DNA of 10,428 nucleotides from a virus (taxonomy: Duplodnaviria; Heunggongvirae; Uroviricota; Caudoviricetes). Position 1 is the first letter of the stretch, and every line of letters begins with the position of its first letter. Positions 3,001-9,000 of the stretch are shown here, one piece after another. The position numbers were made by a program. The stretch lies in IMG/VR virus record IMGVR_UViG_2541047776_000001, positions 1 to 10,428 of that record, one strand, 5' to 3'.

Positions 3001-6000
3001 ATGACACGCCTGTCCCGGTGCTGTTGCCAGGCAATAAGAAAACGAAGACCGGGCGGTTATGGACCTACGTTCGTGACGACCGTAACGCCGGGTCAACGCT
3101 GGCGCCGGCGGTGTGGTTCGCTTACAGCCCGGACAGAAAAGGCATCCATCCGCAGACCCATCTTGCGGGGTTCAGTGGTGTACTGCAGGCGGATGCATAC
3201 GCCGGGTTCAACGAGCTGTACCGGGATGGCCGGATAACGGAAGCCGCCTGTTGGGCTCACGCCCGCCGTAAAATCCACGATGTGCACGTTCGCACCCCGT
3301 CAGCCCTGACGGAGGAAGCGCTGAAACGGATCGGCGAACTGTACGCCATCGAGGCAGAGATAAGGGGAATGACGGCGGAGCAGCGCCTTGCCGAACGTCA
3401 GTTGAAAACGAAACCGCTGCTGAAATCCCTGGAAAGCTGGCTGCGTGAAAAGATGAAAACCCTGTCGCGACACTCAGAACTGGCGAAAGCGTTCGCATAC
3501 GCCCTGAACCAGTGGCCGGCGCTGACGTACTATGCAGATGATGGCTGGGCTGAGGCGGACAATAACATCGCTGAAAATGCGTTGCGGATGGTCAGTCTGG
3601 GCCGCAAAAACTACCTGTTCTTCGGTTCGGATCATGGAGGAGAGCGGGGAGCGCTGCTGTACAGCCTGATCGGGACGTGCAAACTGAACGGAGTGGAGCC
3701 AGAAAGCTACCTCCGCTATGTCCTTGACGTCATAGCCGACTGGCCGATAAACCGGGTCGGCGAACTGCTCCCCTGGCGCGTAGCACTGCCGACTGAATAA
3801 CACATCCCCGTCAATACGGTTCTTGCTGCACGCTTACGAAGAAAGCCACCGCAGGCATCAGTATCAGCTGAATTTTATAACCCATATACGGGCGCCAGAA
3901 ATGGCGCCTTTTTTATTGCAGAAAAGCGAGAGGTAATTATGCGTAAAGTTTGTGCAGCCATTTTGTCCGCAGCCATCTGTCTGGCCGTATCCGGTGCGCC
4001 TGCATGGGCGTCTGAGCAGCAGGCCACACTGAGCGCAGGGTATCTTCATGCCCGTACGAACGCTCCCGGCAGCGAAAATCTGAACGGGATTAACGTGAAA
4101 TACCGTTATGAGTTTACGGACACGCTGGGGCTGATTACGTCATTCAGTTATGCCAACGCTGAAGATGAGCAAAAAACGCATTACAGCGATACCCGCTGGC
4201 ATGAGGATTCCGTGCGTAATCGCTGGTTCAGCGTGATGGCGGGGCCGTCTGTGCGCGTGAATGAATGGTTCAGCGCGTATGCGATGGCGGGTATGGCTTA
4301 CAGCCGTGTGTCGACTTTCTCCGGGGATTATCTCCGCGTAACTGACAACAAGGGGAAAACGCACGACGTGCTGACCGGAAGTGATGACGGTCGCCACAGC
4401 AACACGTCTCTGGCGTGGGGAGCTGGCGTGCAGTTTAACCCGACCGAATCCGTGGCCATTGATATTGCTTATGAAGGCTCCGGCAGTGGCGACTGGCGCA
4501 CTGACGGTTTCATCGTGGGTGTCGGTTATAAGTTCTGATTAGCCAGGTAACACAGTGTTATGACAGCCCGCCGGTTCAGGCGGGCTTTTTTGTGGGGTGA
4601 ATATGGCAGTAAAGATTTCAGGTGTACTGAAAGACGGCACAGGAAAACCGGTACAGAACTGCACAATCCAGCTGAAAGCAAAACGTAACAGCACCACGGT
4701 GGTGGTGAACACGCTGGCCTCAGAAAATCCGGATGAAGCCGGGCGTTACAGCATGGACGTTGAGTACGGTCAGTACAGCGTTATTCTGTTGGTGGAAGGA
4801 TTCCCGCCGTCACATGCCGGGACCATCACCGTGTATGAAGATTCTCAACCCGGTACGCTGAATGATTTTCTCGGTGCCATGACGGAGGATGATGCCCGTC
4901 CGGAGGCACTGCGCCGTTTTGAGCTGATGGTGAATGAAGTGGCACGTCATGCCGGAGCGTCATCACAGAGTGCAGCGGCGGCAAAGAAATCCGAAACGGC
5001 AGCAGCCTCATCGAAGAATGCAGCGAAAACCTCAGAAACGAATGCAGCTAACAGCGCACAGGCGGCAGCGGCCTCGCAGACTGCATCGGCAAACTCCGCG
5101 ACAGCAGCCAAAAAATCAGAAACCAGCGCGAAAAATAGCGAGACAGCCACAAAGGCCAGCGAAAAAAACGCAAAATCCAGCCAGACGGCAGCGAAAACCA
5201 GTGAGACGAATGCCAAAGACAGTGAAGCCAACGCAAAGGTGAGCGAAACAGCGGCGGCGAACTCGGCGAAAGCATCGGCAGCAAGCCAGACGGCAGCAAA
5301 AGCAAGTGAAGATGCTGCCAGAGAATACGCAAACCAGACAGCAGAGCCGTACAGATATGTTTTACAGCCGCTGCCGGATGTGTGGATACCCTTTAATGAT
5401 TCGCTGGATATGATTACGGGCTATTCTCCGGGTTATAAAAAAGTGAAGATTGGTGATAATGTGGTTCAGGTTGCCAGTGATAAACAGGTTAATTTCAGTC
5501 GCGCATCAACGGCAACATATATCAACAAATCTGGCGAACTGAAAACGGCGGAAATTAATGAGCCACGATTTGAAAAAGAAGGTTTATTGATTGAAGGTCA
5601 GCGAACCAACTACATGTTGAATTCAGCAACTCCAGCTTCTTGGGGTAAATCTGCAAATATGAATGTCGCTGAGGTTGGAACTGATAGTTTTGGTTTTACT
5701 TATGGAAAGTTTGTTTGTAATGAATCATTAATTGGGCAAAGTACAACCCTTAATATGGCAGTAGTTTCAACCTCGGGGGCTGTCGATGTATCAGGCGATA
5801 ATAAGTGTGTGACGACATCGTGCAGATTTAAAACGGATTTGGAACTCCTGTTAAGGATCAGGTTTGAAGCCTTCGATGGCAGCGCTTCATCTAATCTTGG
5901 ATATGCCATTGTTAATACGCGGTCTTTATTGGTTGAAATCACCGGTGTAGCTGCCGACAGGCTCACCGCACGAGTTAACAAAGATGAAGCTACGGGCTGG

Positions 6001-9000
6001 ATTTTTGTAGAGGCAACGATTCAAGCAAGTAAAGAAACTTACATAACCTCTGCAATACAATACGCACCAAAAAAAGGTGGTGTCGTTGAATCTGGTGACT
6101 ATATTTATCTGGCCACCCCTCAGGTTGAGGATGGTTCGTGTGTATCATCTTTTATTATATCAGGAACGACGGCGGCGACGCGCGCAAGCGATATGGTTAC
6201 AGTTCCGATTAAGAATAATCTTTATAATCTTCCTTTTACGGTTCTTTGTGAGGTACATAAGAACTGGTATAAAACGCCAAATGCAGCGCCACGTGTTTTT
6301 GATACCGGCGGTCATCAAACCGGAGCGGCTATTATTCTTGGCTTCGGATCTTCGGCAGATGGGCCAGACGGATTTCCTTATTGCGATATTGGTGGATCAA
6401 ATAGGCGTGTTAACGAAAACGCATCGTTGAAAAAAATGGTTATGGGGATGCGTGTAAAGTCAGATCAGTCTACATGTGCAGTAAGTAACGGGCGTATATC
6501 CAGCGAAACAAAAACCACATGGGAATATATCCGGAGTACAGCAACCATTCGCATTGGTGGACAAACTACAGCAGGATTACGCCATTTATTTGGGCATGTG
6601 AGGAATTTTCGTCTCTGGCATAAAGAGCTAACAGATGCGCAGCTTGGGGAGGTTGTGGAGTGAGAGATTTCACGTTGCGTTTCAGTGATAAAGCAGATTT
6701 CAGGGCATTTCTCAGGAAACTTAACTGGGAAGAGGACGAAGAGCTGCAGAATGCCGTTCTGGTTGATGAGATTGGTTTTACGTTCAGGGAGACAGATGTT
6801 TCTGATGACGGAGAACCAGAATACACGCGAAACGAAGGGTACTTTGTTAATATCCGTCTTCTTGACGATGGATTTGATGATTCCGTGTTCCGTGAGTGGG
6901 TGGTTACACCAGAGCGCCCGCTCAGGGAGTGGTTTTAAGGATAGCAGATGGATATCACGTCGATACTTCATGCGCTTTGTGCCGTGGCGGTGCAGGTACT
7001 GGCTGGTCTTTTTACCGGAAACTGGGCTTACGGGGCGATAGCCGGTTGTACGTTCTTCATTGCGCGTGAACACACCCAGGCAGAATATCGCTGGATTGAA
7101 ATGTTCGGGCATGGCAAGCGGATTAACATGCCGTGGTGGGGCGGTTTTGATCCACGTGCATGGGATGTGGCAAGCCTGATGGATTTTGCTGTGCCGGTGG
7201 TGGCGTGTCTGCTGGTCTGGCTGTTGGTTAATCGTGGGTGAAAAAGGTGAGCAGTATATGCAACGAAGGAGGAAACATCATTGCTGGCGGCATGGAAGGC
7301 ATGCAGGGTGTTGCTGAACCGTGTTGATACATCAACTGCACCTGATATTGAGTGGCCTACGAACCCTGTCAGGGAGTAATCATTGGGATTATGCCGCAGC
7401 ACGTCTTAAGCAAGAACGTGCTGCGGTTGGATGCTATTTTTTCCCTGAAGCGGAAAACATTACTACAGTACCTTGAACCTTGGTTTTAACATTCTCGAAA
7501 TGCTCTGAGAGTATATGTGTTAAGCCTTCTTCGGAATCTTTTGTGTTTGAAAAGATGCCTTTCTGATTGTAAATGCGCATCAGTTTTTGACCGAAGCTAT
7601 TGTGCACAACGCCGTCACCAAGAATTGTGGCTCCGTATAGAGTTCCATCGTCAGTTAAGGCCTGCGCCGCATTGCGTATTACACAGCTTTTTGTAGATAT
7701 ATTTCCAGGCAGGCAGTGAAGAAGGTAAAACATGGAAATGGAATCAAATTGACCATGTAACGCCGCGGGATAAGGATCAAAAACATCATGGCTAATTTTA
7801 TGTTTAATTTTTGATTCCCCAGCCCTTGTCGATGCCGCGTTCAGGCTAGCTTCGTTCAAATCCATTAAAGATATCAGACTACTCTCAGGTACGTGAGTAA
7901 GGTAAAACCCAGTTCCAACGCCAATATCCAGATGGTTGTTACCTAAATGTTCCAGAAAGTGTGGAAGAAGGTGTTCCTTTGTAGGACATCCCCATGCAAG
8001 CCGATTTGATACTCCCAAAACCCACCAGTCATAAAGCTTTAGGGTAAGTGGTGTGTAAATTTTAGCCCCATCATCTGTGTTTTTTTTCATTAGTTTCACC
8101 GTATTATAGTTTTATTTGTGAATTAAATCAATTATGGCGATGAATTACAAGGGGTTAAATGCTGCCGCAGCATAGCGATATTGAAATAGCCTGGTATGCT
8201 TCGATACAGCAGGAGCCGAATGGCTGGAAGACCGTCACCACACAGTTCTACATCCAGGAATTCAGTGAGTATATTGCGCCACTGCAGGATGCTGTAGATC
8301 TGGAAATCGCAACGGAGGAAGAAAGATCGTTGCTGGAGGCATGGAATAAATATCGGGTATTGTTGAATCGTGTTGATACATCAGTAGCTCTGGGTATGAA
8401 GCTGTTTGTAACTCATGTTACAGTAACAGCCATTACTATCTCGAAGGTGCAAAATGTATATTGATTTGATATTTTATAAATTTACTTCGAATCTGGCACG
8501 TCAACTTTTGATTAAAGTAATATCAGTTTTCGGCGAAAAAAGGACCGTGTACATGAGACGATTTCATACAAGAATAACAAAAATATGAATATGCTCCCAA
8601 TGCAATATATGTTTTGCATTGGGAGCAAATAGCGGAATATTTTGAAATTATTGTATTTCTGCTTCAGAATTTCCTGGGCAGTATATATTTTCTGGTTTTT
8701 GTGGAGTGATCAGGTGATGTACAACTGCTTTATCTACACATAAATTAACTCCGGTGAGAGCTAATGTATGCCCATCACCATTTATTGTTAGTAACGGGCT
8801 GGAAAATTTCTCTGCCATCTTACGGGCATTAATCCAGGGCGTTGTTGGGTCGTATTTGTGTGCTACAAACAGTAAACCAGAGGGCAGAACAGTATTTTTC
8901 AGGCGAGTTTTGTTCAGGTCGCTATGTATTGGCCATAATTCACAAAAATCAGGTGAATCGGAACGTCCATTGTCAAAGTTAATAGCCGGGAAGGCATTCG

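What the first reader, a model, noticed from the sequence alone, without database searches (positions are those of the whole stretch)
4603..6663. Mosaic side tail fibre: lambda-like N-terminus joined to an AT-rich divergent distal domain
The first ~110 residues match lambda Stf almost exactly, followed by an Ala-rich repeat shaft. From about 5400 onward the nucleotide composition drops sharply (long A/T-rich runs, unlike the 5' half) and the protein no longer resembles lambda Stf as I recall it. This is the signature of a horizontally swapped receptor-binding module and likely defines the host range of this prophage.
Basis: partly seen in the sequence, partly recalled or inferred. Interest (0 to 1): 0.5.

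Follow-up and report, generated by a model that had tools for sequence, protein, structure and literature searches.

The report
Phage 21-type mosaic side tail fibre
This is an intact side tail fibre gene of a lambda-like E. coli prophage: a lambda-type tail-attachment end joined to a horizontally exchanged, low-G+C, lectin-like tip, an arrangement already known from phage 21 and hundreds of E. coli genomes, so it is real but ordinary.

Summary
Window 4603-6663 encodes a 686-aa side tail fibre (Stf). Residues 1-117 are 91% identical to lambda Stf. Residues 118-249 are a 34%-Ala heptad-repeat shaft. G+C falls from 0.54 to 0.43 (GC3 0.55 to 0.35) at about nt 5391. The distal 437 aa do not resemble lambda's distal Stf.

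The swap reading is supported. A virulent Seuratvirus (Bas25 VogelGryff) shares 84% nucleotide identity with exactly 5365-6625. The same distal module also sits on unrelated N-termini.

It is not new. The gene is 100% identical in six complete E. coli genomes and 98% identical to phage PhiR40_1 Stf. Phage 21 has the same architecture.

New detail from this work:
- The tip is predicted (pLDDT 93) as tandem ConA/LamG-like lectin sandwiches.
- The first sandwich is homologous to the capsule-binding head-spike fibre of the Rhodobacter gene transfer agent.
- Residues about 321-520 are a hypervariable block.
- A 92-aa gene always follows the module, and no intact tfa is present.

The likely function is reversible glycan binding that speeds adsorption. 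The receptor is untested. In this strain an IS66-family insertion alters the end of J.

The parts
4603..6663 (+). stf, side tail fibre gene (686 aa + stop), intact
   Evidence: ORF. Same coordinates as RefSeq WP_021531100.1 in strain EC28, 100% nt identity. phrog_1419 1204 bits.
4603..4884 (+). aa 1-94: collar (tail-attachment) domain
   Evidence: PDB 9E7M/9MGH 'Tail fiber protein' aa 1-94, E = 1.7e-53. Pfam PF08400 phage_tail_N covers aa 1-131, 232.7 bits against a cut-off of 26.6. In Ur-lambda, 12 copies form a collar at the gpV/gpM junction (PMC12617516).
4885..4953 (+). aa 95-117: linker and start of the shaft, still lambda-like
   Evidence: BLASTP to lambda orf-401. Lambda nucleotide similarity ends at 4991.
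4954..5349 (+). aa 118-249: Ala/Ser-rich heptad-repeat shaft (about 19 heptads), inferred trimeric coiled coil
   Evidence: 34% Ala; offset-7 periodicity z = 7-9; AT skew +0.69. By analogy with the Ur-lambda proximal coiled coil. The shaft is about 100 aa longer in HannyBb-type alleles.
5350..5562 (+). aa 250-320: conserved junction and neck of the distal module (PLPDVWxPxNDSL ... RASTATYI..INEPRFE)
   Evidence: Nearly invariant columns in 50 homologues of 26-77% identity. VogelGryff and phage 21 nucleotide similarity starts at 5365/5367. G+C change point at 5391.
5563..6162 (+). aa 321-520: first ConA-like beta-sandwich, the GTA head-spike-fibre domain; hypervariable block and presumed specificity determinant
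   Evidence: NCBIfam NF048003 covers aa 329-528, 50.4 bits against a cut-off of 36. phmmer hit to RcGTA Rcc01080 (6TB9 sequence), E = 3e-6. Identity falls to 40-78% here in proteins that are otherwise ~100% identical, L019 and L058.
6163..6660 (+). aa 521-686: second ConA/LamG-like beta-sandwich, with a second variable block at aa ~561-640 and a conserved C-terminal strand (HVRNFRLWH..LTDAQ)
6660..6938 (+). orf92, an acidic 92-aa protein that overlaps the stf stop and is co-inherited with the distal module; function unknown (candidate assembly partner)
6948..7241 (+). orf97, small membrane protein; conserved right flank of the cassette
   Evidence: phrog_1443. 77-100% identity whatever the distal allele. 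Annotated with two TMDs in phage 21.
7260..7376 (+). 3' remnant of a lambda-type tail fibre assembly gene (Tfa aa 156-194): scar of the displaced cassette
   Evidence: tblastn 85% identity. The same scar follows orf97 in HannyBb and phage 21. RefSeq marks it as a pseudogene.
3939..4538 (+). lom (Ail/Lom outer membrane protein), upstream neighbour as in lambda
   Evidence: PF06316, 416 bits. Lambda gene order J-lom-stf.
303..1383 (+). 3' part of J (central tail fibre), cut 26 nt before its stop
   Evidence: PF09327 and PF12421. Alignment with EC28.
1384..3837 (+). IS66-family insertion sequence (2454 bp; orfA, TnpB_IS66, DDE_Tnp_IS66) with 8-bp target duplication GAAGAAAG
   Evidence: Absent from the otherwise 99.9% identical EC28 locus. 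Ends and duplication. Pfam.

Best explanation
The gene encodes a phage 21-type side tail fibre of a lambdoid prophage. It is built from exchangeable modules.

Modules:
- Residues 1-94 are the lambda-type collar domain. It fastens the fibre to the tail at the tube/tip junction. In Ur-lambda there are twelve copies, making four trimeric fibres.
- Residues about 100-249 form a heptad-repeat Ala-rich coiled-coil shaft (inferred).
- From the conserved PLPDVW junction at about residue 255, a low-G+C distal module takes the place of lambda's gp37-like tip.

Each chain ends in two tandem ConA/LamG-like beta-sandwiches. The first is homologous to the capsule-binding head-spike fibre of the Rhodobacter gene transfer agent.

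I infer that these lectin-like heads bind a surface glycan (O-antigen, capsule or LPS core) reversibly. That would hold the virion at the cell surface until the central fibre J finds its outer-membrane receptor.

Specificity probably lies in the hypervariable block at residues about 321-520, and secondarily in residues about 561-640.

The distal module travels with a 92-aa gene directly downstream. It lies between conserved flanks (shaft on the left, orf97 on the right), which allow homologous recombination to swap it. A lambda-type Tfa chaperone is not part of this cassette; only a 39-codon tfa scar remains.

Shown here: identity of the modules, composition shift, breakpoints, co-inheritance, predicted fold.
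Inferred: trimeric coiled coil, glycan binding, role of orf92, independence from Tfa.

The confidence of 0.7 is for the whole statement. The mosaic, phage 21-type identity alone is about 0.95. The glycan-binding mechanism alone is about 0.6.
For: Composition shift: change point at nt 5391; G+C 0.54 to 0.43; GC3 0.55 to 0.35; 0/500 permutations. The same dip is present in phage 21 and HannyBb stf.

Collar: PF08400 232.7 bits. PDB 9E7M aa 1-94, E = 1.7e-53. Structure and copy number from PMC12617516.

Shaft: heptad periodicity z = 7-9.

Breakpoints: lambda similarity ends at 4991. VogelGryff shares 84% nt identity with only 5365-6625. Phage 21 similarity resumes at 5367.

Alternative N-termini on the same distal module.

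Family size: 2538 clusters at 50% identity with E <= 1e-3. Most full-length hits cover query residues 5-435 behind N-terminal regions of very different length.

GTA link: NF048003 at 50.4 bits against a cut-off of 36. Rcc01080 E = 3e-6. The head-spike fibre binds capsule (PMC7296036, PMC10218006).

Hypervariable block.

orf92 adjacency: 73/73 loci.

No intact tfa: only fragments are present. PhiR40_1 (98% identical Stf) has no tfa match in the stretch examined, and phage 21 has only a 20-codon remnant.

Side fibres that bind glycans and are needed on smooth or capsulated strains: PMC11990801, PMC12312913, bioRxiv 10.1101/2025.02.28.640725, PMC8594841.
Against: - No receptor or binding experiment exists for this allele or for phage 21 Stf in the literature I could search.
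- ConA/LamG folds also bind proteins, and some members are enzymes.
- The structure is a monomer prediction. Trimer geometry, the domain interface and any binding site were not modelled. I had no coordinates to map the variable blocks onto the surface.
- The 6TB9 entry resolves only residues 2-10 of the GTA fibre, so that homology is by sequence, not by solved structure.
- I have no evidence that phage 21 or PhiR40_1 virions actually carry side fibres.
- In this strain an IS66-family element alters the last 8 residues of J, so the prophage may not make infective particles at all.
Confidence: 0.7

Rival explanations
1. The distal module binds an outer-membrane protein (a porin, as lambda Stf binds OmpC) rather than a glycan.
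For: Lambda Stf binds OmpC. LamG/ConA-like domains such as the botulinum toxin Hc domains and neurexin LNS domains, both among the structural hits, take part in protein recognition.
Against: The best structural matches are carbohydrate-binding modules and lectin-like domains. The only characterised sequence homologue binds capsule. Block-wise hypervariability fits the diversity of O and K antigens. Side or lateral fibres of siphoviruses generally target glycans.
Confidence: 0.2
2. The distal module is an enzyme: a polysaccharide depolymerase or lyase with a jelly-roll fold, acting as a tailspike.
Confidence: 0.07
3. The composition drop is not a sign of foreign origin. It reflects amino-acid content (an Ala-rich, GC-rich shaft against an ordinary distal part) or local selection.
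For: The shaft is 34% Ala (GCN codons), and second-position G+C is high there. In lambda too, the distal stf and tfa have lower G+C than J.
Against: The drop is largest at synonymous third positions (0.55 to 0.35). It also holds against the non-Ala-rich collar domain (GC3 0.564). The change point coincides with homology breakpoints to three other phages. The module is found on unrelated N-termini.
Confidence: 0.04
4. In this particular strain the gene is an unused relic. The prophage is defective, so the fibre does not currently determine any host range.
For: An IS66-family element replaces the last 8 residues of J with 17 foreign ones. The prophage lies in the ompT/nfrA region, where related genomes carry decayed prophage ends: tfa fragments, an integrase fragment and duplicated methyltransferase/ompT.
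Against: stf, orf92 and orf97 are intact and 100% or near-100% identical to copies in other genomes. The effect of the altered J terminus is unknown. Only 10.4 kb of the prophage is visible. This is compatible with the best explanation for what the protein is.
Confidence: 0.4

Closest known systems
Phage 21 side tail fibre (UMO75437.1) with its two downstream genes; also Escherichia phage PhiR40_1 Stf
   Same: Same 686-aa architecture: collar, heptad shaft, then distal module. It is followed by a 92-aa gene and a 97-aa membrane protein gene. Identity is 65% overall to phage 21 and 98% to PhiR40_1. All belong to phrog_1419.
   Different: Against phage 21, the shaft (25-48% identity at aa 161-240) and the second lectin domain (28-30% at aa 561-640) are diverged. 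Phage 21 has no lom between J and stf.
Ur-lambda side tail fibre gpStf (P03764; PDB 9E7M collar) with Tfa
   Same: Position after J-lom. Collar domain 91% identical. Coiled-coil shaft. Accessory adsorption fibre.
   Different: Lambda has a longer proximal coiled coil (residues 102-393), a hinge and a T4 gp37-like distal tip. That tip binds OmpC and comes with Tfa. Here the shaft is about 150 residues, the tip is tandem ConA-like domains, there is no similarity to orf-314, and only a tfa scar remains.
Lateral tail fibre of the virulent Seuratvirus VogelGryff (BASEL Bas25, QXV85444.1)
   Same: The distal module is 84% identical at nucleotide level over window 5365-6625. It is followed by an orf92 homologue (43% identity).
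   Different: The N-terminal attachment region is only 20-50% identical. A 388-aa gene, annotated 'putative lateral tail fiber chaperone', follows the orf92 homologue, and there is no orf97 homologue. It is a virulent phage with a genome of about 43% G+C in this region.
Head spike fibre Rcc01080 of the Rhodobacter capsulatus gene transfer agent (NCBIfam NF048003 GTA_spike_fiber)
   Same: Sequence homology covers aa about 298-543, i.e. the conserved neck motifs and the first beta-sandwich. It is a flexible accessory adhesin that binds capsular polysaccharide.
   Different: Rcc01080 is a 325-aa protein attached as a single copy to capsid pentons by an N-terminal (I/L)-G repeat. It has no collar, no shaft and no second lectin domain.
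Pseudomonas phage Pa193 gp46 / E217 baseplate protein; carbohydrate-binding modules (AbnA domain 4, CBM40); laminin LG4-5
   Same: Predicted fold: ConA/LamG-like beta-sandwiches, in tandem for Pa193/E217 and LG4-5.
   Different: Sequence identity is 9-16%. The resemblance is at fold level only, on a predicted model. The virion location or biological context differs.

Membership tests
Lambda-type side tail fibre (Pfam PF08400 phage_tail_N proteins) | N-terminal collar domain that attaches the fibre to the tail | tested here: met
   PF08400 232.7 bits against a cut-off of 26.6. PDB 9E7M aa 1-94, E = 1.7e-53. 91.5% identity to lambda over aa 1-117.
Lambda-type side tail fibre (Pfam PF08400 phage_tail_N proteins) | Gene position downstream of J (and lom) at the end of the tail operon | tested here: met
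   Order J - (IS66) - lom - stf in the window. Same order in EC28 with the full tail gene set upstream, and in lambda.
Lambda-type side tail fibre (Pfam PF08400 phage_tail_N proteins) | Trimeric coiled-coil shaft after the collar | tested here: inconclusive
   Strong heptad periodicity and Ala-rich composition. Oligomeric state not modelled or measured.
Lambda Stf proper (gp37-like tip plus Tfa chaperone) | T4 gp37-like distal receptor-binding tip homologous to lambda orf-314 | tested here: not met
   No BLASTP similarity (best E = 5.8). The predicted fold is ConA-like sandwiches.
Lambda Stf proper (gp37-like tip plus Tfa chaperone) | Intact tail fibre assembly gene (PF02413) directly downstream | tested here: not met
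   Only fragments are present: 7260-7376 (Tfa aa 156-194) and 8237-8389 (aa 132-182).
Phage 21-type Stf cassette (phrog_1419 + phrog_1361 + phrog_1443) | Full-length match of the fibre, including the distal module | tested here: met
   phrog_1419 1204 bits. 65% identity over the full length to phage 21 Stf, 98% to PhiR40_1.
Phage 21-type Stf cassette (phrog_1419 + phrog_1361 + phrog_1443) | 92-aa gene overlapping the stf stop, then a 97-aa membrane protein gene | tested here: met
   phrog_1361 E = 1e-40 and phrog_1443 E = 6e-58. 64% and 93% identity to the phage 21 genes. Adjacent in 73/73 loci.
GTA head spike fibre domain (NCBIfam NF048003) | Score above the curated cut-off for the domain model | tested here: met
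   50.4 bits against a cut-off of 36, aa 329-528. phmmer to Rcc01080 E = 3e-6.
GTA head spike fibre domain (NCBIfam NF048003) | N-terminal (I/L)-G repeat that docks into the capsid penton base (a head location) | tested here: not met
   The N-terminus here is the tail collar domain. The motif is described in PMC7296036. The protein therefore shares the domain but is not a head spike.
GTA head spike fibre domain (NCBIfam NF048003) | Binding to capsular polysaccharide | not testable with these tools
   Needs a binding assay. Known only for RcGTA.
Concanavalin A-like lectin / LamG fold | Jelly-roll beta-sandwich fold | tested here: met
   [not shown]
Concanavalin A-like lectin / LamG fold | Sequence match to Pfam Laminin_G_3 (PF13385) | tested here: not met
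   E = 0.11, 13.1 bits against a cut-off of 27.6, C-terminal 52 residues only.

The most novel reading that the evidence does not exclude
Phage 21-type side fibres would be a distinct, uncharacterised class of siphovirus adhesin. They would have monomeric tandem lectin heads on a coiled-coil stalk. They would be evolutionarily linked to GTA head-spike fibres and would assemble without a Tfa-type chaperone. A dedicated 92-aa partner of a fold not seen in the PDB would act as a new kind of fibre chaperone or tip adaptor. The hypervariable first lectin domain would be a swappable cassette that sets O- or K-antigen specificity across temperate and virulent phages.
Probability: 0.3. Interest if true: 0.45.

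Novelty: already known. Interest (0 to 1): 0.22.

Why it matters
Side tail fibres decide whether lambda-like phages, and lambda-derived delivery particles, can get past O-antigen or capsule on natural E. coli. Engineered lambda Stf chimeras are already used for this purpose.

The practical value of this locus is as a parts list, not a discovery:
- a natural, widely used junction (PLPDVW, about aa 255) for grafting tips onto the lambda collar and shaft;
- a compact lectin-type tip that appears to need no Tfa;
- a defined hypervariable block (aa about 321-520) to mine for specificities.

As a scan finding it is an accurate reading of a textbook phenomenon: mosaic tail fibre genes with a conserved attachment end and exchanged distal ends.

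Tried and rejected
- Pfam on the distal 437 aa and on its halves found nothing significant (best hit Laminin_G_3, E = 0.11).
- Tandem Repeats Finder on 4600-6700 found no DNA repeats. The shaft repeat shows only at protein level.
- The PDB sequence hit to 6TB9 cannot serve as a structural template. Only residues 2-10 of that chain are resolved.
- The genome-contig scan used a single peptide pattern and returned only 13 loci: Escherichia, Leclercia, Buttiauxella, Silvania and Atlantibacter, plus distant hits in a Solemya symbiont and Marinicaulis. It gives a hint of breadth but no statistics.
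- The search for homologous proteins on the distal domain listed only near-identical E. coli proteins. Diversity came from the representative search instead.
- Literature searches found no receptor assignment for phage 21-type Stf.
- I considered amino-acid composition as the cause of the G+C drop and rejected it on GC3.
- I considered a depolymerase function. It is unlikely but not excluded.

Full report
**Context**

The window is the right end of the tail operon of a lambda-like prophage of E. coli. The gene order is:

- the 3' part of J (303-1383)
- an IS66-family element (1384-3837)
- lom (3939-4538)
- the gene in question (4603-6663)
- two small genes (6660-6938 and 6948-7241)
- a fragment of a tail fibre assembly gene
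- low-G+C cargo: a class I methyltransferase on the minus strand, a second tfa fragment, and a secreted TAP-like alpha/beta hydrolase on the minus strand

The same locus without the IS is 99.9-100% identical in E. coli strain EC28. There a complete set of lambda-like tail genes precedes it, and ompT, ybcH and nfrA follow it.

**Check of the observation**

- Gene. The ATG at 4603 opens a 686-aa frame.
- N-terminus. Residues 1-117 are 107/117 identical to lambda orf-401, the N-terminal half of Stf in laboratory lambda. DNA similarity to lambda (86%) runs from the end of lom to 4991 and then stops.
- Shaft. Residues 118-249 are 34% Ala with Ser, Lys, Thr, Glu and Asn. Sequence self-identity at offsets of 7, 14, 21, 28 and 35 residues is 7-9 standard deviations above shuffles. 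This is a heptad repeat of about 19 turns, although Tandem Repeats Finder sees nothing at DNA level.
- Composition. A maximum-likelihood change point falls at nt 5391 (G+C 0.542 to 0.430). For third codon positions it falls at nt 5292 (0.552 to 0.353). None of 500 permutations reached the observed likelihood ratio. The collar domain is not Ala-rich and has GC3 0.564, against 0.355 for the distal part. The shift is therefore not a by-product of GCN codons in the shaft.
- Distal part. The distal 437 residues have no detectable similarity to lambda orf-314.

**What the parts are**

*Collar.* Residues 1-131 match Pfam PF08400 (232.7 bits). Residues 1-94 match the 'Tail fiber protein' chain of PDB 9E7M/9MGH at E = 1.7e-53. 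That entry is the Ur-lambda virion. Twelve copies of Stf residues 1-94 form a collar around the gpV/gpM junction. Flexible linkers lead into four trimeric coiled-coil fibres (PMC12617516). By homology, 4603-4884 encodes the attachment domain and the heptad region is the proximal stalk. The stalk is about half the length of lambda's.

*Distal module.* This is a large, separately mobile family. A search of 1.84 billion cluster representatives gave 2538 clusters at E <= 1e-3. The full-length members align over query residues 5-435 behind N-terminal regions of about 80 to over 1000 residues.

- NCBIfam places residues 329-528 in NF048003, the 'phage head spike fiber domain', above its curated cut-off.
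- phmmer finds the head spike fibre Rcc01080 of the Rhodobacter capsulatus gene transfer agent at E = 3e-6, covering Stf residues about 298-543.
- That fibre binds the capsular polysaccharide of recipient cells (PMC7296036, PMC10218006).
- Only residues 2-10 of that chain are resolved in 6TB9, so there is no experimental structure of the homologous domain.

*Predicted fold.* AlphaFold2 on a 50-sequence alignment (26-77% identity) gave a confident all-beta model with pLDDT 93.4 and pTM 0.91.

- Foldseek's longer alignments are to tandem arrangements: Pa193/E217 baseplate proteins and laminin LG4-5.

I conclude that each chain ends in two tandem lectin-like sandwiches preceded by a conserved neck.

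**Evidence for exchange**

1. Breakpoints. The virulent Seuratvirus VogelGryff (BASEL Bas25) is 84% identical in DNA to window 5365-6625 and to nothing else in the window. Phage 21 similarity is interrupted after 5069 and resumes at 5367. Both breakpoints fall at the nearly invariant PLPDVWxPxNDSL motif. Both lie within 26 nt of the composition change point.

2. Alternative partners. Among 80 IMG/VR loci and four phages, the same distal module (76-92% identity) sits on N-termini that are unrelated or only weakly related to lambda's: L017, L015, L054 and VogelGryff.

3. Frequencies. The collar segment (4603-4991) is found in 4803 of 5426 complete E. coli genomes, median two copies and up to 14. 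The distal segment reaches >=80% coverage in only 496.

4. Scar. Directly after orf97 lie the last 39 codons of a lambda-type tfa (7260-7376). The same scar follows the orf97 homologue in HannyBb and, shorter, in phage 21. This cassette therefore occupies the place where lambda has the distal stf and tfa.

5. Low-G+C dip in relatives. The dip is also present in phage 21 (0.55 to 0.43) and HannyBb (0.54 to 0.45). The VogelGryff locus as a whole is 0.43.

**The mosaic is finer than two pieces**

Identity profiles in 40-residue bins show the following.

| Comparison | Where it diverges | Elsewhere |
|---|---|---|
| L019 | aa ~361-520 (57-78%) | essentially identical |
| L058 | aa ~321-520 (40-60%), partly 561-640 | essentially identical |
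| Phage 21 | aa 561-640 (28-30%) | mostly 57-98% (shaft aa 161-240 at 25-48%) |

The first block coincides with the GTA-type sandwich. I take it as the likeliest specificity determinant.

Downstream, a homologue of the 92-aa gene starts at or within a few bases of the stf stop in all 73 loci that have room for it. Its identity to the window copy ranges from 31% to 99%. It tracks the C-terminal end of stf rather than the whole distal module. orf97 stays at 77-100% throughout and acts as a conserved right flank.

HannyBb-type and VogelGryff loci carry an additional 343- or 388-aa gene after the orf92 homologue.

**Mechanism proposed**

Shown: module identities, breakpoints, predicted fold, linkage with orf92, absence of an intact tfa.

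Inferred:
- The fibre is a trimer on the lambda-type collar.
- Its three chains each present two lectin-like domains.
- These bind a surface polysaccharide reversibly and raise the chance that J meets its receptor.

This matches what is established for other siphovirus side fibres:
- Lambda Stf speeds adsorption 10-30 fold, and Ur-lambda needs it to pass unmodified O16 O-antigen (PMC12617516, PMC11990801).
- Gifsy-1 Stf binds an LPS core galactose and is the operative adhesin on smooth strains (PMC12312913).
- A lambda Stf chimera is strictly required to reach O157 strains (bioRxiv 10.1101/2025.02.28.640725).
- BASEL siphoviruses show the same pattern of a conserved 5' end and a variable remainder in lateral fibre genes (PMC8594841).

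Self-contained globular heads would not need a Tfa-type chaperone for an intertwined tip. That fits the lack of an intact tfa here. It also fits PhiR40_1, which has no tfa match in the stretch examined, and phage 21, which has only a 20-codon remnant.

**Rivals**

- Protein receptor. Possible, because the fold also mediates protein recognition.
- Compositional artefact. Rejected on GC3 and breakpoints.
- Unused relic in this strain. The 2454-bp IS66-family element has an 8-bp duplication (GAAGAAAG). It replaces the last eight residues of J (ATAGISIS) with 17 foreign residues. This may cripple the central fibre. In that case 'defines the host range of this prophage' would be moot here.

**Comparison with the known, and novelty**

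The gene is annotated in RefSeq as 'prophage tail fiber N-terminal domain-containing protein'. It is 100% identical in six complete genomes. It is 98% identical to the Stf of the phage PhiR40_1 and shares its whole architecture with phage 21. It belongs to an existing PHROG annotated 'tail protein'.

Mosaic tail fibre genes with conserved attachment ends are textbook. The finding is therefore correct but already known.

This analysis adds:
- the fold assignment
- the sequence link to GTA head-spike fibres, already implicit in NCBI's domain name
- the internal hypervariable block
- the invariable orf92 partner
- the tfa scar

None of these is experimentally characterised in the literature I could search.

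**Limits**

- The structure is a monomer prediction, and I could not inspect coordinates.
- Variable blocks are defined in 40-residue bins.
- The IMG/VR sample is the top 80 loci by similarity, all >=68% identical, so the 73/73 linkage is shown for close relatives plus four named phages only.
- No binding or assembly data exist.

Noticed in passing
window 1384-3837 (and J 3' end, 303-1436): A 2454-bp IS66-family element (HTH orfA, TnpB_IS66, DDE_Tnp_IS66) with terminal repeats GTAAGCGT... and an 8-bp target duplication GAAGAAAG. It sits 26 nt before the J stop and replaces the last 8 residues (ATAGISIS) with 17 foreign ones. The otherwise identical EC28 locus lacks it.
   Followed up: yes
[not shown]
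   Followed up: partly
window 7260-7376 and 8237-8389: Two 3' remnants of lambda-type tfa (Tfa aa 156-194 and aa 132-182). The first directly follows orf97 and recurs at the same place in HannyBb and phage 21, so it is a shared recombination scar. The second lies beyond the methyltransferase inside ORF 8159-8464.
   Followed up: partly
window 6948-7241: A 97-aa small membrane protein gene (phrog_1443; two TMDs annotated in phage 21). It stays 77-100% identical whatever the fibre allele. G+C returns to 0.55 here, marking the right edge of the low-G+C cassette.
   Followed up: partly
window 7434-8099 (-) and 8648-10132 (-): Low-G+C cargo on the opposite strand: a class I SAM-dependent methyltransferase and a 494-aa TAP-like alpha/beta hydrolase with an N-terminal hydrophobic leader. 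In EC28 they are followed by ompT and by a second copy of the tfa-fragment/methyltransferase/ompT set, suggesting tandem decayed prophage ends.
   Followed up: no
window 4951-5400: Extreme AT skew (+0.59 to +0.69) over the shaft. It is caused by A-rich codons for Ala, Lys, Thr, Glu, Asn and Ser on the coding strand. Several long spurious ORFs overlap this stretch in other frames (4934-5242, 4947-5231, 5048-5332).
   Followed up: partly
L004 6664-7695 (HannyBb) and L005 5556-6722 (VogelGryff): In some relatives an extra 343- or 388-aa gene lies after the orf92 homologue. It is annotated 'tail fiber protein' or 'putative lateral tail fiber chaperone'. The two are not similar to each other by BLASTP, and this window has no counterpart.
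   Followed up: no
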